This document shows positions 5,626 to 47,053 of a DNA stretch of 64,000 nt, one piece after another. Under the pieces are notes generated by a model. That model saw only the letters and a program-made list of their open reading frames with translations, was not told the origin of the DNA and ran no database searches. This DNA comes from a virus (taxonomy: Duplodnaviria > Heunggongvirae > Uroviricota > Caudoviricetes). The position numbers were made by a program, and so were the translations under genes. The stretch lies in IMG/VR virus record IMGVR_UViG_2541047715_000004; one strand, given 5' to 3'. Numbering within the stretch: the stretch's first letter is position 1; each line of letters opens with the position of its first letter.

Positions 5626-6158
5626 ACCGCTGACAGCATACACAATCAACTGCCGCTGATAGCATATCGAGAGTCTATCTCACCGCTCACAGCATACTTT
5701 ACTCGATTTTTTACCGCTGACAGCATACTTAAGACATTGCATGAATAATGTGTACCGGTATGGGTATAACCAGAACAAAATTACCGCTGGCAGCATACGA
5801 AGGTCTGACATATGCCATTAATTACCGCTGATAGCATATCCAAACAAAAATTCCTCAATAAAACACCGCTGACAGCATACGTTCTATCAGGGAGCAGCAG
5901 GCAATAAATACCTTTCACTACAAGTAATCAGCGCAATGGGAATAGAATGTTAGTGAGCGCAAACCTATATGGAATGCACTCTTCGAGGTTAGTAACCACT
6001 GGGGAGGTATAAAAGAGCATTGAGTGGTGATAGATGATTTACCGCTCACAGCATACGTTTATCTCACTATACCGCTGGTAGCATATCTTTAACCGTTCAC
6101 AGCATACTTTTCAGAAAAATAGCCGCTGATAGCATACATTTCACCGCTGACAGCATAT
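5626..6158. repeat. iteron array (about 12 copies of ACCGCTGACAGCATAC-like 16-mer) downstream of rep
   Basis: Copies starting near 5626, 5653, 5682, 5713, 5783, 5824, 5865, 6041, 6071, 6092, 6122, 6143. Confidence 0.85.
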
Positions 6159-7252
6159 CAAAGCAGTTTGAGACTATTGGAAAGGATCTCAATCATCTTG
6201 ATATTTTCAGGCGTCAAATTCTGCGAAAGTTCGGTTATCTTATTGATAATGTTCTGTTTGGCATCAATTTCCCCGGCTTTCTCATCTGGTTTTTTGGGTT
6301 CGATGTCTTCAGGTTTTGGCGGTGCGACTTTGAGTTTTGGATTGCGGCTGTGAATCTGGATATAGATCGACCGCCCACGCTTAATCTCGCTGTATTCGAG
6401 ATAGCCCAAATCTTGGAGAGCTTTTAAGCCGTTACGTATAGTCTGATTCTGCGAGCTGACATTCCTGCTACTCAAATTGAGTCGCGCACGCAATCGAGCA
6501 AGCGATACCGGCGCAGGCTTGGTTGGAAGACTTTCGATGAAGGTGTACAGAGCCTGTGCTGTTTCTTTGCGTGGTAGCTTATTGATAACCTTTAACTGCA
6601 AAAGAACCTTATGGTCAAAGCGATATAGTTCGGCCAGCTTCGGTTCTGCATAGAACACCACCGTATCTTTCTGCTCGTTGTAGTCCACGCTATTGATGAG
6701 GTGCACCATCAGAAGCGAGATCTTGTTAGAGCCGTCGACGTTCTTTTCTTCATACGTTCTCTGGAAAGACAGAGTTGTACGCATGATCTTCAAAAGACTG
6801 TTTGTAAGCCGGTCGCGGAGTGTTTTGCGGATCTGTGACGATGGATAGCCACAAAACTTCGCAAATTTCGTGATGCTTAACTCGACACGACCATTAGGTT
6901 CGCCGTATTCTGCCAGCGAACGCACAACGCCCACCCACGTTTTGAAATCATGATCCATGTCCAGGCGAGGACCGGTTATCTTGATATCGGAATAGCCTTC
7001 AGAACGGGCTACTTCGAGCTGGACAAGCTCCTTTGAAGCATCGATCTCATTTGGCTTGTTACGTTTACTGTATTTTGTTCCCTTAAGCGTGGGGACGAAC
7101 AACCCCAGTCGCATCAACGCAATTGGTTGGACTGTATTGTTGCTATTAGGGACAAGTTCCCCTGTGTACAATTCAAGGGAACCTTCTTCAAAGTTGTCGA
7201 TGTTATCTTCTACTTCTTTGTTATTTTTACCTTTTTTATTTTTTGTGGACAT
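6158..7252 (-). CDS. repA: iteron-binding plasmid replication initiator (RepA-like)
   Basis: Flanked on both sides by iterons; start taken at internal Met (MSTKNKK...) because the first 40 codons of the listed ORF are just translated iterons. Confidence 0.65.
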   Translation of the reverse strand: MSTKNKKGKNNKEVEDNIDNFEEGSLELYTGELVPNSNNTVQPIALMRLGLFVPTLKGTKYSKRNKPNEIDASKELVQLEVARSEGYSDIKITGPRLDMDHDFKTWVGVVRSLAEYGEPNGRVELSITKFAKFCGYPSSQIRKTLRDRLTNSLLKIMRTTLSFQRTYEEKNVDGSNKISLLMVHLINSVDYNEQKDTVVFYAEPKLAELYRFDHKVLLQLKVINKLPRKETAQALYTFIESLPTKPAPVSLARLRARLNLSSRNVSSQNQTIRNGLKALQDLGYLEYSEIKRGRSIYIQIHSRNPKLKVAPPKPEDIEPKKPDEKAGEIDAKQNIINKITELSQNLTPENIKMIEILSNSLKLL

Positions 7253-7272: not shown

Positions 7273-7374
7273 ACCGCTGACAGCATACTTGATTTGCCGC
7301 TGACAGAATACTAAAAACAGTTGGCAGCATACGGTGAACCGCTGACAGACTATCAATTACCGCTGACAGCATAC
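7273..7374. repeat. iteron array upstream of rep (4-5 copies)
   Basis: ACCGCTGACAGCATAC at 7273 and 7359, variants at 7296, 7338, partial at 7321. Confidence 0.8.
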
Positions 7375-7409
7375 ATGAACATGACTTCAGACCAGTCGTG
7401 GCGCGGCTT

Positions 7410-7495
7410 ACAGCGATCGGGGATCTTATTTGATCTATATAAGGATCTATCTATGGATCTCTTTATTAGGATCTATCCTGTGGATATGTGAATAA
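7410..7495. promoter_or_regulatory. putative plasmid origin core: GATC cluster plus DnaA box
   Basis: Six GATC sites within 7415-7473; TGTGGATAT (reverse complement ATATCCACA, one mismatch to TTATCCACA) at 7480-7488; AT-rich. Confidence 0.55.
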
Positions 7496-24796: not shown

Positions 24797-24944
24797 TAAG
24801 TAAGTGTTTACCTATCATTTTAAATCATGTATCTTATCAGCGTCAGGATGACAATGTGTCGGTAAGACACAGTTCCAGGATGGAACGAGAAAGGCGGCTG
24901 GCGATCGCCAGCCGCAACTCTTTCTGACACTGGATGGAGTCCAC

Positions 24945-40484: not shown

Positions 40485-40699
40485 CGGTTGTAACTTATTG
40501 ATAATGGCGGTCACAATTTGATTCTTTTCTATAAGAATCCGTTGATCGCCACTACTCCCCTACCATGCCCGCAATCACATCCTTAAATATCAATAAGTTA
40601 TAGTTGTTTATACAATCAAGAAAACAACTGAATAACAGATCAACGAAACATCAACGCTTTCACCCGATTTGGTCTAAAAAATTGACGTTTTCACACATC

Positions 40700-41340
40700 A
40701 CTGCTTATACCCGTAATTCTACACAGCAGACAGCGCCACAGCGTCCAATTTTCACCACAGACGACCCAACACACTACCAACAAAAACACATGCTCAAAAT
40801 CGTTCCCGTTGCGTTACATAACCATATAAACAACTTATTTTCAGGCATAACAAAACAACTAAATAACACATATGCCATTCCCAAAACAACCAACCTCGTT
40901 ATGGCAGGCTACCGAAAAGACCCACCTCTTCTTCCCAGGCTACCGGACAACCAACCTAACTTTCACAGGCAATCCGAAAACATTCATACGCGCGATACCC
41001 ACGACACGCCATTACCCAAACAGCGAAGAAACACCAGAATCACTGAAACCCCAACGAAGCCTGTAACCGCAAGGTTTCTCTCAATCCCAAAAGACACGAA
41101 GCATAACAATCACGGGAAACGCCATTACCCAATACACGAATAACTACAAAAGCCTTTCACACACTCCAGACAAACAACTCAAACACAATAACGAAAGGAA
41201 TCGCCCACCTGCCATTACTCCATACACGGAGAAGAACAATCACCAAAACGACGAGAACACCCCATAGAAGAACCACCGCAAAACTAACGAAACCACATAC
41301 ACCGACAGAGAAAACAACACACCCAATTCACCAACAGAAA
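40700..41340 (+). other. C+A-rich, G- and T-depleted tract (approximate bounds)
   Basis: Long runs such as caccacagacgacccaacacactaccaacaaaaacaca; ORF 40604-41143 translates to low-complexity T/P/N/K/H/Q-rich sequence. Confidence 0.6.
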
Positions 41341-41467
41341 TAGTCGCCGTATAGAACGTTCTGGAAGGAGTGAGCATTAACGCCTATAGAGAGGTTGAGA
41401 CAGATAAAACACGAAGAAAACACAACATGTATAGCGAAGAAGCCAGGTATGTATAAGTGGGGAGGGA

Positions 41468-41490
41468 AGGAGGGGTGTCGCCTCCTTTTT
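41468..41490 (+). terminator. putative terminator after CA-rich tract
   Basis: Hairpin ggagg-ggtgtcg-cctcc followed by TTTTT. Confidence 0.4.
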
Positions 41491-41553: not shown

Positions 41554-41700
41554 CAGGGAAAAGGTTGCATCCCGCTACAGAAACGGCTGGGTTGCCTTCG
41601 GGGAACGGCTGGAGGTTTTCAGGGAAACGGTCGAGTTGCCTGTGTGGATTTCGGGAGAAGGCTCGATGCCGGTTCAGGAACGGTGGAGTACCGGTATAGC
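41554..41700. repeat. array of GGGAAACGG-like repeats at about 22-25 bp spacing
   Basis: cagggaaaagg, cagaaacggctgg, ggggaacggctgg, gggaaacggtcg, gggagaaggctcg, ggaacggtgg. Confidence 0.55.
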
Positions 41701-42047
41701 GAGAGGGAGAGTTGCGGCTATCCACCTGTAATCTGCGGGAAGAAGAGTGGCGCTCACGTGCAGGCGGACTAACTTACCGTTGGACTCCCTCTGAATGCCC
41801 AGTTACAGCGTAATTGTGCCAGACAGCCAACGGGTCACAATCGATTTCAGTAGGTTTTCGGGGAGATGATTATTCTGCCCACCAGCCACCTTCGGCCACT
41901 AAATCAGAATAATGTAAAAAGTGTTCTCGGTACTGAACCTGAAAACTCACTGCCAAAACCACATTCACCGGAATAAAATCCTTTTTCGCCTGTGCGTTAT
42001 TGCGATAATAACACCATCAAGAAAACATGTTGTTTAAGGATTGCTTT

Positions 42048-42377
42048 ATGTTTGCAAATATCGACATCAACCAAATCAAGAAATTGACTCAAAAAGAGTT
42101 TGACCAGTTCTATGAGCTGGAAGGTTGGTCTTCCACTCTGATCAATTCGCGGTGGGTGCTTGAGCTGATGACTCGTGATGACGCACCTGCTTTGATGATT
42201 TGCGACATGGGTGAAGATGCTGACTTTATGGATATGAGCGAATTTTGTGTGGACACATACAACCGCAGCCAGAAGTACTACTTCACATGCGATAGCGAGA
42301 ATGACGTGATTTCTAAGGTCTATCTTCACCTTGTCCAGCATTGGGACGTTCAGGAGTTTCTTGAAGTATTCGAGTAA
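42048..42377 (+). CDS. hypothetical protein
   Basis: Start taken at second ATG (MFANIDINQ); first ATG lies inside the upstream motif. Confidence 0.45.
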   Translation: MFANIDINQIKKLTQKEFDQFYELEGWSSTLINSRWVLELMTRDDAPALMICDMGEDADFMDMSEFCVDTYNRSQKYYFTCDSENDVISKVYLHLVQHWDVQEFLEVFE

Positions 42378-42530
42378 ACCTAACCAAAGCCAGCATTGCT
42401 GGCTTAATTTCTCTATAGCCGCAGGGAAGAACCTGCATATCGCTCATGCACCTGATCATTATGCTTTGTAGCCGTTTTCTTACTGGTATTATTTACGCCA
42501 TTGAGAAAACAAGTTGTTTACGGAGTTGTG

Positions 42531-42842
42531 ATGAAAAAATCATTGGTTCTTGGTCTGGACAAAGACCAGAAGAGAAAAGAGAAGCCTGCGCTGGTTGCTC
42601 AATTAACTTTGCTGGACATCGTTGCCAATGGAACCTCTATTCGTCTGTTCCGTGAAACAGCGGTGTCTTTCGATAAAAACACCTTTACTCGTTATGTAAT
42701 GAATGTTCGTCGCCAGCGTGGAAAAGGCTGGATGGCATTTCAAAGAATGTGGCCGGAACATCAGCTCGAACTGGCTTTGATGGAAGTTAACCGCGTGGCC
42801 CAGCAAGAAATTCAGAGAGCATCAGTGATGGCAATAGCCTGA
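42531..42842 (+). CDS. hypothetical protein
   Basis: Start taken at MKKSLVLG with GGAG RBS. Confidence 0.45.
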   Translation: MKKSLVLGLDKDQKRKEKPALVAQLTLLDIVANGTSIRLFRETAVSFDKNTFTRYVMNVRRQRGKGWMAFQRMWPEHQLELALMEVNRVAQQEIQRASVMAIA

Positions 42843-42877
42843 TAATGTGCAAGTGGTAATTAGTCGACAGTACGACA

Positions 42878-42907
42878 GCCCCGCCATCCTTACGGGGCTT
42901 TTTTGTA
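42878..42907 (+). terminator. rho-independent terminator
   Basis: Hairpin agccccg-ccatccttac-ggggct followed by TTTTTT. Confidence 0.65.
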
Positions 42908-42968
42908 TTGTAAGTACATACTTACGATCATAGAATATAAAAATAACCAATACACTACGGAGAGTGAA

Positions 42969-43364
42969 ATGACCGTTAAACGCGAAAAACTGACTGTTGA
43001 TGTTTACTATGCCTCTGAAACCGCCGAAGGTAAGAATGTGGCAAAAATCACCGTTGTTACGTACAACACCGAAACTGGTGCCGAAGTACAGGCCAGTACG
43101 ATCGTGCGTAAAGGTGATGCCTCCGGCGGCGAGTACGCGACTCAATACCAGTCCATTCTCGATGCAACTGACCCGCTGCTGCTGAAAATCGAGAACTACT
43201 TCCGCCAGGTTGATGAAGAGGTGTTTGAAACCATGATGAATATGGTTAACACCGTATTCGCCTCCAACCTGAATACCAACACTACCTGGATTGGTCAGTA
43301 CGGCCTGCGCATTACCTCTGGCATTCCTGCCGACACCTTAATCCCTGAAAGCGTATTCGCTTAA
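42969..43364 (+). CDS. hypothetical protein
   Basis: Start taken at MTVKREKLT with GGAGAG RBS. Confidence 0.45.
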   Translation: MTVKREKLTVDVYYASETAEGKNVAKITVVTYNTETGAEVQASTIVRKGDASGGEYATQYQSILDATDPLLLKIENYFRQVDEEVFETMMNMVNTVFASNLNTNTTWIGQYGLRITSGIPADTLIPESVFA

Positions 43365-43373
43365 TCCTCTTTA

Positions 43374-43400
43374 AATGGCGCGTAAACCGCGCCATTTTAT
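43374..43400 (+). terminator. rho-independent terminator
   Basis: Hairpin aatggcgcg-taaa-ccgcgccatt followed by T-rich run. Confidence 0.6.
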
Positions 43401-43481
43401 TAAGCCCGATAACAATTTGTTTTCTGCCTTATCTGATTTGTGAAAATGATTTCACTGAAGCAACTTAATAAGGAAACCATC

Positions 43482-43856
43482 ATGGGACTTGATATCTATA
43501 TCGAGACACAGCCTAAAAACGATCTGAATAACGAGGCATCCAGAAAGCAGGTTGCTTACTTCCGTAAGTTCAATGCGCTCGTTGGGTGGATGGAGCGCAA
43601 CGTAGGTGAAGTCGAAAATTGTGAGCTTTTAGAATTAACGATGAATGACATTTGTTTTCTGAAGGCTCATTTGATGCACATAAACGAAAGCAATTGCGAA
43701 GAGTACTTGCCTACCCGGGAAGGTTTTTTCTTCGGCAGTCAGGAGTACGATGAAGGTTACTGGCATGACGTGGATAAGCTGAAAAAACTTGTGGAAGACC
43801 TGATCAGGAACCACGACTTTCACAATAACAGACTGACCTTCTGCGCCTGGTGGTAA
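43482..43856 (+). CDS. hypothetical protein
   Basis: Start taken at MGLDIYIET with AAGGAAA RBS. Confidence 0.45.
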   Translation: MGLDIYIETQPKNDLNNEASRKQVAYFRKFNALVGWMERNVGEVENCELLELTMNDICFLKAHLMHINESNCEEYLPTREGFFFGSQEYDEGYWHDVDKLKKLVEDLIRNHDFHNNRLTFCAWW

Positions 43857-43858
43857 AT

Positions 43859-44002
43859 ATGGGCGATTTCAAGAAACGCCTGAAGGAAAGAGCCGAGATG
43901 GTCAGAAAGCAAAACGCCTCTTCTGTCATCAGATACGCAAGGCAGTTTAGTCGCAACAACAAATCAGTTGAGGAAAAGATCCTTAGCGTAATCGTGCGAT
44001 AA
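43859..44002 (+). CDS. small basic ORF (below 60-aa cutoff, uncertain)
   Basis: 47 codons MGDFKKRLKERAEMVRKQ..., followed by hairpin aaggccatcagcattggtggcctt. Confidence 0.2.
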   Translation: MGDFKKRLKERAEMVRKQNASSVIRYARQFSRNNKSVEEKILSVIVR

Positions 44003-44206
44003 TTATTAAGGCCATCAGCATTGGTGGCCTTAAATGACCATCTTGTTTCCCGCAGGCTAAAAACACCAACCTCTTACCTCCAGGCAACCGACAAACCCAC
44101 CTGTTCCCGTCCGGCTACCGCAACTTTCCACTTTGACGCCTTATTCGTACAACGATAATTAACGCCAACAAGAAAACAATTTGTTATTTACGATAAGGAA
44201 TTAATC

Positions 44207-44689
44207 ATGAATTTTATCGCTACTGTAAACGCACCCGCACATGGCAATATCGCTGTAACGTTCTCTGACATTGAAAAACGAGTACTTGGTGCATGGCGCG
44301 ACAATGAGACGGTAGAACTGTCAGCACAAGAAAAATGCATTATTGCACGCGACATCATTGGCAATCGTCGTTACTCGCGGGTATTTGAGAAAGCGTATGT
44401 GGTAAATTCTGGATTCGGAACGTTCGTCTTTCCGGTGCGCTCCGGGCGATTCTGCCAGTCCAAGCTGATTGAGTTCGCTACGCAGATTTCTGTCTGGATT
44501 AAAACTCAATCGTCGTTCAAATTTTCCGACGATGAAGCAGTATCGCAGGGGATGCGGATCGCCAACAATGCGATTAAATGCAAAAACATTACGTATACCG
44601 CTGGCGTTGATACATGGAAACTGTTTTGCGCTAACTTTATGCTGAATGTATACGCAAGCAACCGCATCCACATCCTTGATGGCGTGTAA
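44207..44689 (+). CDS. hypothetical protein
   Basis: 160-aa ORF with GAAAACAATTTGTT motif upstream. Confidence 0.5.
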   Translation: MNFIATVNAPAHGNIAVTFSDIEKRVLGAWRDNETVELSAQEKCIIARDIIGNRRYSRVFEKAYVVNSGFGTFVFPVRSGRFCQSKLIEFATQISVWIKTQSSFKFSDDEAVSQGMRIANNAIKCKNITYTAGVDTWKLFCANFMLNVYASNRIHILDGV

Positions 44690-44691
44690 CT

Positions 44692-44722
44692 GAGAAGAGG
44701 GCCAGAAACGGCCCTTTCTCTA
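44692..44722 (+). terminator. rho-independent terminator
   Basis: Hairpin gagaagagggcc-agaaac-ggccctttctc. Confidence 0.5.
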
Positions 44723-44741
44723 TAGCCACCAGCTGCCGCAG

Positions 44742-44830
44742 GGAAATTTTCAGAAACGGCGAGGAACGTATTCATGAGCCGACGGGGAACGGCCAGGATT
44801 TTTTCGGGAAACGGCTGCATTCGCCTTTAT
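44742..44830. repeat. second GGGAAACGG-like repeat cluster
   Basis: cagaaacggcgagg, ggggaacggccagg, gggaaacggctgc at about 22-bp spacing. Confidence 0.5.
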
Positions 44831-44939
44831 GTAGAAAAAACATCGGGAAGCTGGTGGAATCCAACCAGCGGTTGTCGGACAGGTGAGCGGGGAAAATTAT
44901 GATGACTTTCGTCGCCTGAGACATCCAGATTTCTTTCGT

Positions 44940-45065
44940 AGCGTAATCACATATGTGATTAAGTGGTGTGATTATGTGAAAAATCACGCGCACATAATAC
45001 GAGAGCGGATACGGAACAAAACAAAATGCCGATCCGCGCCGACAATTAAACGCGGATCACATAGC
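44940..45065. promoter_or_regulatory. cluster of palindromes (putative operator region)
   Basis: Perfect 16-bp palindrome AATCACATATGTGATT; ATTATGTG...CACATAAT; GATCCGCG...CGCGGATC. Confidence 0.35.
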
Positions 45066-45281
45066 AAGAATAAAAGCCAATGATTAACCATACACCATAA
45101 CGCAATATAACGCGATTTAAGCGCGTTAATGCGCTAAGTAATGGGTATGTACTGGTAAGGATATAAAAGCGCGTCTATGGCGTTATTTTGGCGCTTATTT
45201 TTATGTTGTTGGTGTGAGTCAAAGACAATAAAAAAAGCGCCATCATTGGCGCGTTATGGTGGAAGTATTGGAAACGAAAAA

Positions 45282-45300
45282 AGCGCCCATAGTGGGCGCT
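45282..45300 (-). terminator. terminator hairpin for minus-strand operon (repeated hairpin family)
   Basis: agcgccca-tag-tgggcgct with T-run on minus strand; the same 20-mer aaagcgcccatagtgggcgc recurs at 45549-45568. Confidence 0.5.
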
Positions 45301-45305
45301 CGATT

Positions 45306-45536
45306 TTATTTATGTAAACTGATTTCAAATCCCATTTCTACAAACGCTTTTAACATTAAAAATATATCAGCGTCATTCATGTCTGCTTTTTTTCGCTCCT
45401 GGTCGCTCAATAAGTCAATTTTGCGCGTCGTTTCATCTATAAGCTCGACTGCGCGCCCAGCGTAACCAGCGATCCCAGCGATGCGATTAACAAAATATTC
45501 ATTACGTACGTTAACGCCAGCGATAAGAATAAACAT
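45306..45536 (-). CDS. small hypothetical protein
   Basis: Start taken at MFILIAGV with AAGGAG RBS; second gene of a two-gene minus-strand operon. Confidence 0.4.
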   Translation of the reverse strand: MFILIAGVNVRNEYFVNRIAGIAGYAGRAVELIDETTRKIDLLSDQERKKADMNDADIFLMLKAFVEMGFEISLHK

Positions 45537-45583: not shown

Positions 45584-46234
45584 TTACGCTTTGAAAGCAT
45601 CAGCCAGATAGTTATAGAAATCATTTTTAATGAAGCGATATTGCTGCGTACCAGCTTTTGCGCTTCCCATTCCTTTGACTTTCTCAACAAGTCCAAGACG
45701 TTCGCAAAGATTGATCAACTGGTTGGCTTGAGTATAGCCAGCGTCCAATTTAATTTCGCACGCTTTTTTAGCTTCATTCATTAAATCGAAAACAGCGCCA
45801 TTGGTGAACGTGTCGATCTCGTCGTTAATCATATCGATTAAAGCGAATACACGAGATCCTGACATATCAGCGATGGAATAAACGCATTTACCAGCTTTAA
45901 TTGATTTAACCAGATAGACCAGTTTTTCCAGTGAATAACTATTAGTCATTGCATCACGGAAAAATACTTCTGGCGCTTGTTTACTTGCTTTGATCGCATA
46001 GTAGAAAACAGAGCATAATTTTTCGTCTTCTACTGCGTTCACAACGTTGTTGATGAAGTAAGCAAGTTTAGTGGTCGCAGCTTGCATGTTTGCTTTGTCT
46101 GCTTTTGTGTGCGTACCATTTTTATAATGTTCGTTATATGTTTGAGTTGCCAGATCTGCTTTTTCGCGCAGCTCGTCGGATACAATGGCAGCAGCTTCAA
46201 TGATGGATTTTTTAGAAATGATAATGTTAGCCAT
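45584..46234 (-). CDS. hypothetical protein
   Basis: 216-aa ORF in AT-rich block with AT-rich upstream region 46235-46480. Confidence 0.5.
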   Translation of the reverse strand: MANIIISKKSIIEAAAIVSDELREKADLATQTYNEHYKNGTHTKADKANMQAATTKLAYFINNVVNAVEDEKLCSVFYYAIKASKQAPEVFFRDAMTNSYSLEKLVYLVKSIKAGKCVYSIADMSGSRVFALIDMINDEIDTFTNGAVFDLMNEAKKACEIKLDAGYTQANQLINLCERLGLVEKVKGMGSAKAGTQQYRFIKNDFYNYLADAFKA

Positions 46235-46531: not shown

Positions 46532-47053
46532 TTAAAACGGAAGGATTCGTTCAACCCAATCGAAGAAAATAAGTATTTTTCTACCGTCTTCCAACTTAAG
46601 TGTGACTAGACAGGCGTCAACGCCATCTGACGTTCCCTCAATTTCGCGACCGTCTGCCATGTAGACCCTTATAGATTTGCCGTTTTGGTAAGCCTGACGA
46701 CATATCTTAAAAAAGTCACGACGTGATGGCTGATTAACCATCTGTTCATTGTTTAGCGTTAGTCGACCTGTGAATGAAGTGTCAACCTCTTCTATGCCCG
46801 ACTCAATTGTGCTAATGCGCTCAAGAGGGAGCCTTATACGATTTGTGTTGCTAAGCGGATCTGGTGTGAGGTTCAGCTTATTTCTTGCGCTCAATAGCCC
46901 GTAGACATACATGCAAAACACTTGGCCGTCTTCGAGAGTGACTCTTACAGGAAATTTTGCACTCCGCCAGAAGAGCAAGGTGCGCTCAGCATGTTCGTAG
47001 TCTCGCGGCCAGACTTCAGCCGGTATGCCGTAGGTGATGTCCAATGTTCTCAT
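46532..47053 (-). CDS. hypothetical protein
   Basis: 173-aa ORF overlapping upstream gene by ATGA; terminator hairpin aataaccggacttagccggttatt downstream. Confidence 0.5.
   Translation of the reverse strand: MRTLDITYGIPAEVWPRDYEHAERTLLFWRSAKFPVRVTLEDGQVFCMYVYGLLSARNKLNLTPDPLSNTNRIRLPLERISTIESGIEEVDTSFTGRLTLNNEQMVNQPSRRDFFKICRQAYQNGKSIRVYMADGREIEGTSDGVDACLVTLKLEDGRKILIFFDWVERILPF

What the first reader, a model, noticed from the sequence alone, without database searches (positions are those of the whole stretch)
44940..45065. Dense cluster of TGTGA/TCACA palindromes and a GATCCGCG inverted repeat in a non-coding gap
A perfect 16-bp palindrome AATCACATATGTGATT, ATTATGTG(N12)CACATAAT and GATCCGCG(N12)CGCGGATC lie between the plus-strand small-gene cassette and the minus-strand accessory operon. 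This resembles an operator-rich control region or small-RNA locus.
Basis: seen in the sequence. Interest (0 to 1): 0.4.

Follow-up and report, generated by a model that had tools for sequence, protein, structure and literature searches.

The report
Palindrome cluster in phage-plasmid spacer
The palindromes are real and under selection: one is a transcription terminator, and the others are probably protein-binding control sites in a conserved non-coding spacer of a widespread E. coli phage-plasmid, but their function is not proven.

Summary
The window is an SSU5/pHCM2/pLF82-type phage-plasmid of E. coli. The finding lies in a ~620-bp non-coding gap (44690-45305) between convergent operons. The gap is conserved in position and length in E. 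coli, Klebsiella, Enterobacter, Salmonella pHCM2, phage SSU5 and Yersinia pestis pMT1.

All three inverted repeats exist as described. The first extends to 18 bp. The cluster is the densest TGTGA/TCACA and inverted-repeat cluster in the 64 kb.

GATCCGCG-N12-CGCGGATC followed by a T-run is a minus-strand intrinsic terminator, the third in a row. Natural variants keep its pairing only on the minus strand.

The TGTGA palindromes are an Escherichia-specific elaboration of a family-conserved core, TGTGATTATGTGAA. Most relatives carry TAATCACATACGTGATTA, so the perfect palindrome is a strain-level variant. Across 21 distinct relatives, 44955-45000 never varies, stems and loops alike, which fits protein-binding or promoter DNA better than plain RNA stems.

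I found no CRP-geometry site, no Rfam match, no conserved ORF, and no second copy of the palindrome in the 109 kb of the plasmid searched.

Best reading, at low-to-moderate confidence: an operator/promoter-proximal control block of a small transcription unit shielded by terminators on both sides. Next to it lie 22-bp-period GGGAAACGG arrays and a gene for a winged-helix protein. RNA-hairpin and origin/centromere readings remain open.

The parts
44696..44724 (+). Terminator-like hairpin (AGAGGGCC-agaaac-GGCCCTTT plus a T-rich tail) directly after the stop of the 160-aa + strand gene. It forms the left boundary of the insulated spacer.
   Evidence: Read. The homologous GGGGCTGGAAACGCCCC+TTTCTTTT is conserved in all relatives. 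The simple scan did not call it, so this is an inference from the sequence.
44739..44815 (+). Array B of GGGRAACGG units (CAGAAACGG 44751, GGGGAACGG 44784, GGGAAACGG 44806, plus GGGAAAT 44741) on an 11/22-bp lattice. It is the most conserved part of the gap and is iteron-like.
   Evidence: The RNAalifold consensus structure is weak at -6.2 kcal/mol, which points to a sequence-motif (protein-binding) array rather than a folded RNA.
44772..44924 (-). 50-aa ORF annotated by PGAP as a hypothetical protein (WP_226126075.1). Judged not to be a gene.
   Evidence: Annotation seen. The ORF is frameshifted by homopolymer-length (A-run or T-run) polymorphisms in several of the 14 close relatives that were translated, and every substitution seen is nonsynonymous. 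It is not conserved in frame or length in other family members, and phage SSU5 has a stop after two codons.
44876..44903 (+). The only sigma70-like promoter match in the gap, CGGACA-16-TATGAT. It would start a + strand transcript near 44910 that runs through the palindromes.
   Evidence: 9 of 12 matches. It lies in the Escherichia-specific segment. The -10 varies among relatives: TATGAT, TATTAT, and CATGAT in Cyrano. This is a consensus match only.
44944..44961 (.). IR1, TAATCACAT/ATGTGATTA. It is a perfect 18-bp palindrome here. Its arms are copies of the core half-site TGTGATTA, and it is absent from non-Escherichia relatives.
   Evidence: The variant TAATCACATACGTGATTA is found in most relatives. 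It reads as an extra block of about 23 bp relative to the general type. There is no other copy in the window or in the 45 kb of the plasmid covered by L092.
44967..44980 (.). Family-conserved core TGTGATTATGTGAA, which reads TTCACATAATCACA on the - strand. It contains a -10-like CATAAT on the - strand and an extended -10-like TGtGATTAT on the + strand.
   Evidence: Conserved in the E. coli, RHB27, Klebsiella SB611, Y. pestis, pHCM2, SSU5 and Enterobacter types, with a variant CGTGATTATGTGCA in Cronobacter, and absent in the short Klebsiella NH25/K. oxytoca type. The promoter reading is my own inference from the sequence.
44971..44998 (.). IR2, ATTATGTG-N12-CACATAAT, with a nested GTGA-AAAA-TCAC repeat. 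It is invariant, loop included, in all 21 Escherichia-type variants.
45015..45059 (-). T3, a minus-strand Rho-independent terminator. On the - strand the hairpin GATCCGCG...CGCGGATC (up to 11 pairs) is followed by GCATTTTGTTTTG.
   Evidence: One search gives two overlapping terminator calls on the - strand and none on the +. Variants G45038A and A45050G give a G.U plus a new C-G pair only on the - strand. T3 is present only in the Escherichia and RHB27 types.
45097..45136 (.). 10-bp-period repeats ATAACGCAAT/ATAACGCGAT/TTAAGCGCGT/TAATGCGCTA, including the inverted repeat TAACGCGATT/AAGCGCGTTA. Relatives differ in copy number of the homologous AAACGCGCTA unit.
   Evidence: D14, I13. One search shows L029 with two extra units and a 10-nt indel of TCGCCAGATA units in L008/L013.
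45171..45205 (+). Plus-strand terminator-like hairpins (GGCGTTATTTTGGCGCT plus TATTTTTATG). They are the likely 3' end of any + strand transcript that starts inside the gap.
   Evidence: Homologous + strand terminators are present in Klebsiella and Cronobacter relatives, and the divergent L016 type also has a + strand terminator in the right half of its gap.
45229..45252 (-). T2, a minus-strand terminator (GCGCCAATGATGGCGC plus TTTTTTT).
45277..45310 (.). T1, a bidirectional terminator AAAAAAGCGCCCATAGTGGGCGCT. It ends the - strand operon, is invariant in the family, and is tandemly duplicated 2-3 times in some relatives.
   Evidence: One search found it in 75 IMG/VR contigs, with 2-3 tandem copies at 44-47-nt spacing in L026, L032, L053, L063 and L070.
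41556..41631 (+). Array A, a paralog of array B. It has four GGGRAACGG-type units at an exact 22-bp period (41556, 41578, 41600, 41622) and sits directly after a + strand terminator (41464-41490). Arrays A and B bracket the variable small-gene cassette 42027-44689.
   Evidence: A second array lies 2.4-4 kb upstream in the same orientation in many relatives. L046 has four perfect 22-bp units.
45584..46234 (-). Neighbouring 216-aa gene, predicted to fold as a long helical hairpin plus a C-terminal winged-helix domain. It is a candidate DNA-binding partner for conserved motifs in the gap, but no link has been shown.

Best explanation
The finding is the Escherichia-lineage version of the middle of a conserved non-coding spacer between two convergent operons of SSU5/pHCM2/pLF82-type phage-plasmids. 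The spacer is shielded from outside transcription on both sides. It has two kinds of part. (1) Well supported: GATCCGCG-N12-CGCGGATC with the T-run to its left is a Rho-independent terminator for the minus strand. It is the third after T1 and T2, arose in the Escherichia lineage from a non-pairing ancestral sequence, and stops leftward transcripts before they reach the palindromes. (2) Inferred: the TGTGA/TCACA palindromes (IR1 and IR2) are DNA-level binding sites for a dimeric regulator, that is, operators. They were built by inverted and direct duplication of the half-site TGTGATTA around a family-conserved core, TGTGATTATGTGAA, that looks like a -10 element (CATAAT on the minus strand, TGtGATTAT on the plus strand). 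They would control a short non-coding transcription unit that starts inside the spacer and ends at the spacer's own terminators. Candidates are the + strand sigma70-like promoter at 44876-44903 ending at 45171-45205, or a - strand start just right of IR1 ending at the hairpin at 44696-44717. The regulator is unknown. The adjacent 216-aa winged-helix protein is one candidate. Host CRP is not.
For: Identity of the element and conservation of the gap. Terminator: one search calls it on the - strand only, and the natural variants at 45038 and 45050 keep pairing (G.U plus a new C-G) only on the - strand. Selection on the palindrome block: 44955-45000 has no variable site among 21 distinct Escherichia-type sequences, and 44858-45007 has 1-4 variable sites per 30 nt against 1-2 in the coding flank, while 45008-45277 has 4-14. 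The 12-nt loop of IR2 is as invariant as its stems, whereas the loop of T3 varies. This suggests sequence-level constraint (protein or promoter) for IR1/IR2 and structure-level constraint for T3. The core TGTGATTATGTGAA is shared across otherwise diverged gap types. IR1's half-sites are 11 bp apart centre to centre, one helical turn, which is usual for HTH or winged-helix dimers (read; the general rule is from established knowledge). Insulation: terminators face inward on both sides, + strand terminators lie 440-520 nt downstream of the + gene's own terminator in the Klebsiella relatives, and one sigma70-like promoter lies inside the gap. The region is not coding. A winged-helix protein is encoded 0.5 kb away.
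Against: No transcript, transcription start or protein binding was observed; everything in part (2) is inference. The palindrome occurs only once in the 109 kb of the plasmid searched, whereas well-studied phage repressors usually have several operators. Promoter matches are weak: there is no good -35 for the CATAAT reading, the + strand promoter's -10 is CATGAT in Cyrano, and the scan finds no more promoters than shuffled sequence does. The recognition-helix region of the 216-aa protein is invariant across the family, while IR1/IR2 are lineage-specific, so it is not an obvious partner for them. Y. pestis sRNA-seq lists no sRNA in the homologous pMT1 gap, though phage genes may be silent there and pMT1 has the other gap type. 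Both strands fold better than shuffles (z -3.2 and -3.9), so an RNA role is not excluded.
Confidence: 0.4

Rival explanations
1. The inverted repeats work as RNA rather than DNA. They would be three successive stem-loops of a ~300-nt plus-strand non-coding RNA that starts near 44910, from the promoter at 44876-44903 or from the GGGAAACGG array region, and ends at the + strand terminators at 45171-45205. The RNA itself would be the functional product, for example a regulatory or immunity-type RNA. The lineage-specific middle segment would set its specificity.
For: There is a + strand promoter match in the gap, and + strand terminators in the right half are conserved in all gap types. The predicted RNA folds with IR1, IR2 and IR3 as separate hairpins, z = -2.85 and -3.24. 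The central C/T polymorphism of IR1 falls in what would be the loop, and the L060 change C44948T would give a G.U pair on the + strand. In other gap types, small hairpins with changed stems occur at similar places: GTGG..CCAC against GTGA..TCAC, and GCGC..GCGT against CTGC..GCAG with a G.U on the + strand. Paralogous array A sits just after a + strand terminator and upstream of a + strand operon, so the arrays could be promoter-upstream elements.
Against: No Rfam family matches. The loops of IR1/IR2 are as invariant as the stems. Covariation in the general type is mixed, with several common variants that break the pairs, and wobble pairs favour different strands in different hairpins. T3 is clearly selected on the opposite strand. 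No sRNA was reported in the pMT1 gap.
Confidence: 0.25
2. The whole spacer is a cis-acting DNA site for DNA handling rather than gene control. It could be an origin for lytic replication, a centromere-like site or a replication barrier. The 22-bp-period GGGAAACGG arrays would bind a plasmid protein, and the AT-rich TGTGA palindrome block would serve as an unwinding or auxiliary binding region.
For: The arrays have an exact 22-bp period, a conserved half and a variable half, and copy number varies between relatives. Other repeats show 10-11-bp periodicity. The region 44940-45000 is AT-rich at 35% GC and lies next to a G-rich stretch. The segment is insulated from transcription on both sides. 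The gap is conserved in every family member, including pMT1. The adjacent winged-helix protein's weak structural neighbours include Orc1/Cdc6 winged-helix domains, RTP and TubR.
Against: The plasmid's RepA iterons (ACCGCTGACAGCATAC) are unrelated and lie about 37 kb away. DnaA-box-like matches are no more frequent than chance across the window. No initiator, partition ATPase or terminase gene is adjacent; the replication and partition genes lie elsewhere in the plasmid. The palindromes themselves are lineage-specific, whereas the arrays are family-wide. GC skew shows no switch here. The structural matches are weak and generic for winged helices.
Confidence: 0.2
3. The TGTGA/TCACA motifs are binding sites for host CRP, as the first reader suggested testing, and place the region under catabolite control.
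For: Only the presence of the pentamers TGTGA and TCACA.
Against: No pair has the CRP spacing TGTGA-N6-TCACA, even allowing 2 mismatches; the nearest matches in the window are at 43439 and 46769. IR1 has the half-sites in the opposite order with 2 bp between them (TCACA-TA-TGTGA), and the other pairs are spaced 4, 11 or more bp apart.
Confidence: 0.03
4. The palindromes have no function of their own. They would be a by-product of local duplication and inversion in a spacer whose only role is to hold terminators between convergent operons.
For: IR1 looks like an inverted duplication of the neighbouring TGTGATTA. The gap shows much repeat expansion and contraction. The block is missing from most genera.
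Against: There is no variable site in 44955-45000 among 21 distinct sequences, while the neighbouring terminator region varies 3-7 times more. The block is kept in about 184 Escherichia/Shigella plasmids. However, a recent common origin of this segment could also produce low diversity.
Confidence: 0.12

Closest known systems
Rho-independent (intrinsic) terminators, including tandem and bidirectional terminators between convergent operons
   Same: IR3 is a GC-rich hairpin of 8-11 pairs followed within 2 nt by a T-run on the minus strand. Natural variation preserves its pairing on that strand. It sits in series with two further terminators at the end of the minus-strand operon.
   Different: It lies about 250 nt beyond the operon's first terminator and is specific to the Escherichia and RHB27 types. 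It therefore looks like an added shield for the segment to its left rather than the operon's main terminator.
Dyad-symmetric operators of phage and plasmid HTH or winged-helix repressors, such as the lambda OR/OL 17-bp sites and BlaI/MecI dyads (from general knowledge)
   Same: IR1 is a 16-18-bp dyad with half-sites one helical turn apart. Several related half-sites are packed within 55 bp next to -10-like sequences. The sequence is strictly conserved within the lineage.
   Different: No cognate repressor gene is adjacent in the usual divergent arrangement. The site is unique in the 109 kb of the plasmid searched. It lies between two 3' ends, and no binding has been shown.
CRP (cAMP receptor protein) sites
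   Same: They share the pentamers TGTGA and TCACA.
   Different: Both the spacing and the order of the half-sites are wrong. No TGTGA-N6-TCACA match with <=2 mismatches lies in or near the region.
Iteron arrays of plasmid origins, such as the 22-bp iterons of R6K, and repeat-type centromeres such as tubC bound by winged-helix TubR (from general knowledge)
   Same: The neighbouring GGGRAACGG arrays have an exact 22-bp period, a conserved half and a variable half, and variable copy number. A winged-helix protein is encoded next to array B.
   Different: They are unrelated to the plasmid's own RepA iterons. No initiator or partition ATPase is adjacent, and nothing links the palindromes functionally to the arrays.
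Non-coding RNA immunity or regulatory loci of other phage-plasmids and satellites, namely P1 c4, P4 CI RNA and N15 CA RNA (from general knowledge; analogy only)
   Same: It is a small non-coding unit with its own terminators in a temperate phage-plasmid. A lineage-specific variable middle is flanked by conserved sequence.
   Different: There is no sequence or Rfam similarity, no demonstrated transcript, no identified target, and no adjacent antirepressor gene.

Membership tests
Rho-independent terminator (IR3, 45015-45059, minus strand) | GC-rich hairpin followed directly by a U-run on the transcribed strand | tested here: met
   11 pairs (6 G-C), loop of 8, tail GCATTTTGTT on the - strand, plus an overlapping second call. 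There is no call on the + strand.
Rho-independent terminator (IR3) | Natural variation preserves pairing on the transcribed strand | tested here: met
   In L072/L080, G45038A gives a G.U and A45050G gives a new C-G pair on the - strand. On the + strand the first change gives an A-C mismatch. Only a few variants were available.
Rho-independent terminator (IR3) | Transcript 3' ends map to the U-run | not testable with these tools
   No transcript data are available for this plasmid.
CRP binding site | TGTGA-N6-TCACA dyad (22-bp consensus) | tested here: not met
   no match with <=2 mismatches between 43455 and 46768. The spacings present are 2, 4 and 11 or more bp.
Repressor operator cluster (HTH or winged-helix dimer) | Dyad symmetry with half-sites about one helical turn apart | tested here: met
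   TAATCAC-N4-GTGATTA has half-site centres 11 bp apart.
Repressor operator cluster (HTH or winged-helix dimer) | Overlap with or close proximity to a promoter | tested here: inconclusive
   One sigma70-like match lies 40 bp upstream on the + strand. A -10-like CATAAT lies within the conserved core on the - strand, read by eye. Neither is verified, and the promoter count is not above shuffled sequence.
Repressor operator cluster (HTH or winged-helix dimer) | Further copies of the operator elsewhere in the element | tested here: not met
   No other TAATCAC-N4-GTGATTA with <=2 mismatches in the 64-kb window or in the 45 kb covered by L092. About 7 kb of the plasmid was not searched.
Repressor operator cluster (HTH or winged-helix dimer) | A cognate DNA-binding protein binds the site | not testable with these tools
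   The 216-aa winged-helix neighbour is only a candidate, and its recognition helix is family-invariant.
Known RNA families (Rfam 15) | Covariance-model match at the gathering score | tested here: not met
   There are 0 matches in the window. In 44600-45400 only sub-threshold chance-level matches appear, all right of 45060.
Small protein-coding gene (PGAP's 50-aa ORF, 44772-44924, minus strand) | Reading frame conserved among relatives | tested here: not met
   Frameshifts in close relatives and only nonsynonymous changes. The ORF has a different length or frame, or an immediate stop, in other types.
DnaA-box cluster or oriC-type origin | Several TTWTNCACA boxes beyond chance | tested here: inconclusive
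   Two boxes (0 and 1 mismatch) at 44954-44983 on the - strand. The window total of 137 equals the shuffle expectation of 144, and the region was chosen for its TGTGA content in the first place.
Iteron array of the plasmid's RepA replicon | Sequence related to the RepA iterons | tested here: not met
   The RepA iterons are ACCGCTGACAGCATAC at 5626-6162 and 7273-7378. They are unrelated to the TGTGATTA and GGGAAACGG units.

The most novel reading that the evidence does not exclude
The conserved 620-bp spacer, with its two 22-bp-period GGGAAACGG arrays bracketing a variable gene cassette, could be an undescribed cis-acting or RNA-based control locus of the SSU5/pHCM2/pMT1/pLF82 phage-plasmid family. 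Examples would be the lytic replication origin, or a non-coding immunity or switch unit. In that case the lineage-specific palindrome block (Escherichia type against general type against short type) would set specificity between related phage-plasmids, much as heteroimmunity regions do in P1/P7.
Probability: 0.15. Interest if true: 0.6.

Novelty: new member of a known kind. Interest (0 to 1): 0.33.

Why it matters
SSU5-type phage-plasmids are common in clinical Enterobacteriaceae. They include pLF82/Cyrano of adherent-invasive E. coli, pHCM2 of S. Typhi, Klebsiella IncFIB(K)-type phage-plasmids and the backbone of Y. pestis pMT1. Their regulation has hardly been studied. This work maps a conserved non-coding region under selection into defined parts: terminators, a conserved core, lineage-specific palindromes and iteron-like arrays. 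It removes a spurious annotated ORF and names testable sites and a candidate DNA-binding protein. If the block controls a switch, an origin or compatibility between related elements, it would be a handle on their stability and induction. If not, it remains an ordinary terminator and operator-like spacer.

Tried and rejected
- **Rfam.** Gathering threshold on the whole window and E-value mode on 44600-45400 gave nothing meaningful. tRNA/tmRNA search was negative.
- **Small protein on the minus strand (PGAP's 50-aa ORF).** Rejected: frameshifted in close relatives and not conserved elsewhere. Plus-strand ORFs in the gap are not conserved either.
- **CRP site.** Rejected on spacing.
- **Other copies of the palindrome as a regulon.** None in the window or in the 45 kb of L092.
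- **Link to the plasmid's RepA iterons.** Rejected.
- **DnaA boxes.** Not enriched.
- **XerCD dif/cer-like site, Tus Ter site, IHF, Fur, FNR, sigma54, sigma28 and sigmaE promoters.** Compared by eye with consensus sequences recalled from memory. None fitted. No tool test was run.
- **Origin of the Escherichia-specific segment in another element.** BLAST finds it only in Escherichia/Shigella SSU5-like plasmids.
- **Published Y. pestis sRNA-seq.** The two pMT1 intergenic sRNAs (sR082, sR083) map elsewhere.
- **Literature on SSU5, Cyrano and phage-plasmids.** Nothing on this region.
- **Folded-RNA reading of the GGGAAACGG element.** RNAalifold support is weak. Alifold of the general-type middle region on both strands gave no convincing covarying structure.
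- **Resemblance of CCGTGGG to the Salmonella fliC leader, with a link to the FljA-like neighbour.** This rested on a recalled sequence only, sits in a different structural context, and was not pursued.
- **GC-skew switch at the gap.** None.
Full report
**What the window is.** The 621 bases around the finding match 461 plasmids by megablast and 784 in the more sensitive mode. Nearly all are non-mobilizable IncFIB-typed plasmids of about 105-120 kb from Escherichia, Klebsiella, Enterobacter, Salmonella, Citrobacter, Cronobacter and Yersinia pestis. They also match phages Cyrano (pLF82), PhiR41_1 and, in part, Salmonella phage SSU5. One E. coli plasmid is 100% identical, and its annotation shows terminase, portal, capsid and tail genes. 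The window is therefore an SSU5/pHCM2/pLF82-type phage-plasmid.

**Where the finding sits.** A + strand 160-aa ORF ends at 44689 and a - strand operon ends at 45306. The finding lies in the roughly 620-bp gap between these two 3' ends. A gap of the same position and similar length exists in every family member examined, including Y. pestis pMT1, S. Typhi pHCM2 and phage SSU5.

**Check of the observation.** All three repeats are present at the stated coordinates, and the first extends to a perfect 18-bp palindrome, TAATCACATATGTGATTA at 44944-44961.
- The 126 bp hold five TGTGA/TCACA pentamers against 1.7 per kb in the window. This is the densest such stretch.
- They also hold four perfect inverted repeats with arms of at least 8 bp, which is the top cluster in the window. 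In 100 shuffles the largest cluster was 1 or 2 in 99 cases and 3 once.
- The perfect palindrome is a strain-level detail. Of the 21 distinct Escherichia-type versions recovered, most, including Cyrano and PhiR41_1, read TAATCACATACGTGATTA. The conserved unit is therefore TAATCAC-N4-GTGATTA.

**The third repeat is a terminator.** On the minus strand, GATCCGCG...CGCGGATC forms a hairpin of up to 11 pairs followed by GCATTTTGTTTTG. The scan calls it twice on the minus strand and not at all on the plus strand. Two natural variants, at 45038 and 45050, weaken one pair to G.U and create a new C-G pair on the minus strand, while the first gives a mismatch on the plus strand.
- It is the third minus-strand terminator after the bidirectional hairpin at 45281-45301 and the one at 45237-45252.
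- In non-Escherichia relatives the homologous sequence (GCCGACACGTCCCGAAGGATAGCGCGGATC) neither pairs nor has a T-run. The terminator is therefore a derived feature of the Escherichia and RHB27 gap types.

**The TGTGA palindromes.** Alignment of 11 and then 73 distinct gap sequences shows three types of middle segment.
- The Escherichia type carries IR1 and IR2.
- A general type (Y. pestis, Salmonella, SSU5, Enterobacter, some Klebsiella, Cronobacter) shares only the core TGTGATTATGTGAA and the sequence to its left.
- A short type (other Klebsiella) lacks even the core.
- Relative to the general type, IR1 is an extra block of about 23 bp whose arms repeat the core's TGTGATTA, one copy inverted.
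- The Escherichia-type block occurs only in Escherichia/Shigella plasmids of this family (223 PLSDB records).
- Among the 21 distinct versions, no site varies in 44955-45000. The interval 44858-45007 has 1-4 variable sites per 30 nt, the coding flank has 1-2, and 45008-45277 has 4-14.
- The 12-nt loop of IR2 is as invariant as its arms, whereas the loop of the terminator hairpin varies. That pattern fits constraint on the DNA sequence itself (protein binding or a promoter) better than constraint on RNA pairing alone. Low diversity from a recent common origin cannot be excluded.

**What the palindromes are not.**
- No pair of pentamers has CRP spacing, even with two mismatches.
- No Rfam family matches, and there are no tRNA or tmRNA genes.
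- The 50-aa minus-strand ORF that PGAP annotates at 44772-44924 is frameshifted by homopolymer-length polymorphisms in close relatives. It shows only nonsynonymous changes and is not conserved in other types.
- The palindrome has no second copy in the window or in the 45 kb of the plasmid fetched as L092.
- The plasmid's RepA iterons are unrelated.
- DnaA-box-like matches are not enriched.

**Anatomy of the whole gap.** From left to right, the gap holds the following features.
- A terminator-like hairpin lies after the 160-aa gene (44696-44724; read).
- A very conserved array of GGGRAACGG units follows on an 11/22-bp lattice, with units at 44751, 44784 and 44806.
- Next comes the variable middle, which in this lineage carries the gap's only sigma70-like promoter match (44876-44903, + strand), then IR1, the core and IR2.
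- The minus-strand terminator T3 follows.
- Then come 10-bp-period TAACGC repeats.
- Plus-strand terminator-like hairpins lie at 45171-45205. They have counterparts in Klebsiella and Cronobacter relatives, and the divergent L016 type also has a + strand terminator in the right half of its gap.
- Last come the two terminators of the minus-strand operon.

The segment 44725-45015 is thus shielded from transcription entering from either side. Plus-strand terminators sit several hundred bases beyond the + gene's own terminator. Both facts suggest that transcription starts inside the gap. This is inference; no transcript data exist for this plasmid. A Y. pestis sRNA-seq study lists two intergenic sRNAs on pMT1, and both map elsewhere.

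**The neighbouring arrays.** The GGGAAACGG array has a paralog 3.2 kb upstream, with four units at an exact 22-bp period (41556-41631). It also lies directly after a + strand terminator.
- Many relatives have this second array 2.4-4 kb upstream in the same orientation, and one relative has four perfect 22-bp units.
- The two arrays bracket the + strand small-gene cassette, whose length (2.4-4 kb between the arrays) and annotated genes differ between relatives.
- RNAalifold gives the array only a weak consensus structure. It behaves like a row of protein-binding sites with iteron-like periodicity.
- Homology between the two copies does not extend into the palindrome region.

**Neighbouring proteins.**
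- The 173-aa gene at 46532-47053 is a clear FljA-type "repressor of phase-1 flagellin" (PF03614, E = 1.4e-68). Proteins of this type block fliC mRNA translation (PMC2652032).
- The 216-aa gene at 45584-46234 has no Pfam or PDB sequence match and is confined to this plasmid family. Its AlphaFold2 model (pLDDT 82.6) shows a long helical hairpin followed by a helix-strand-helix-helix-strand-strand domain.

**Most likely mechanism.** I commit to a two-part reading. IR3 is a minus-strand intrinsic terminator (well supported). IR1, IR2 and the core form an operator/promoter-proximal block that controls a short non-coding transcription unit nested in an insulated spacer (inferred). Overall confidence is about 0.4.

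**Rival readings.**
- The repeats could be stem-loops of a ~300-nt plus-strand RNA (0.25). The fold is plausible, but the loops are invariant and covariation is mixed.
- The spacer could be a cis-acting DNA site, such as an origin, centromere or barrier, working with the 22-bp arrays (0.2).
- The palindromes could be a functionless by-product (0.12).
- They could be CRP sites (0.03).

**Novelty.** Terminators and dyad operators are ordinary kinds of element, so I class the finding as a new member of a known kind, with modest interest. I found no description of this spacer or its arrays in the searchable literature. Its conservation across a clinically important family makes it worth a transcript map and a binding assay.

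Noticed in passing
window 41556-41631 and 44739-44815: Two paralogous arrays of GGGRAACGG units bracket the + strand small-gene cassette (42027-44689). Array A has an exact 22-bp period and array B sits on an 11/22-bp lattice. Each lies directly after a + strand terminator. The pair is conserved in many relatives, and one relative (L046 6313-6387) has four perfect 22-bp units. The arrays look iteron-like, and their binding protein is unknown.
   Followed up: partly
window 40500-41490: About 1.5 kb carries no annotated gene in the identical RefSeq plasmid. The stretch 40900-41330 is extremely A/C-rich and G/T-poor on the + strand, and the region ends at a strong + strand terminator (41464-41490). 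It could be a long non-coding transcript or a Rho-loading region.
   Followed up: no
window 45584-46234 (- strand): A 216-aa family-specific protein has no Pfam or PDB sequence match. It is predicted (pLDDT 82.6) to fold as a long helical hairpin plus a C-terminal winged-helix domain. Residues 167-174 are invariant or nearly so across the family.
   Followed up: yes
window 46532-47053 (- strand): A 173-aa FljA-type 'repressor of phase-1 flagellin' (PF03614, E = 1.4e-68) is conserved next to the gap in the whole family. FljA-type proteins block fliC mRNA translation, so the phage-plasmid may silence host flagellin.
   Followed up: partly
window 44772-44924 (- strand): The RefSeq/PGAP hypothetical protein WP_226126075.1 (50 aa) annotated here in many E. 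coli plasmids is very likely spurious. It is frameshifted by homopolymer-length variation in close relatives and is not conserved in other genera.
   Followed up: yes
window 45277-45300; loci L026, L032, L053, L063, L070: The bidirectional terminator AAAAAGCGCCCATAGTGGGCGCT is invariant across the family (75 IMG/VR contigs). In some relatives it is tandemly duplicated two or three times at 44-47-nt spacing.
   Followed up: partly
window 45097-45136; L029 and L008/L013 in the alignment: Short 10-11-bp-period repeats (TAACGCNNNT here; AAACGCGCTA and TCGCCAGATA in relatives) vary in copy number between relatives. They could give phased A-tracts (bent DNA) or reflect slippage.
   Followed up: no
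window 5626-6162, 7273-7378, 7479-7495: These are the plasmid replicon's iterons, 13 or more copies of ACCGCTGACAGCATAC in two clusters, together with two adjacent DnaA boxes (ATATCCACA, TTATTCACA). A separate set of five TACTCAC-N4-GTGGATA-like dyads lies just downstream of repA (L092 1128-1659).
   Followed up: partly
[not shown]
   Followed up: partly
window 24894-24915: A perfect 22-bp palindrome, GCGGCTGGCGATCGCCAGCCGC, is the longest in the window. It was not examined.
   Followed up: no
L006 (CP057434.1) and relatives L020, L048, L050, L068, L079: A recombinant 'RHB27' gap type combines the general-type left and middle parts with the Escherichia-type right part, which includes the T3 terminator. 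This shows that the spacer evolves by modular exchange.
   Followed up: partly
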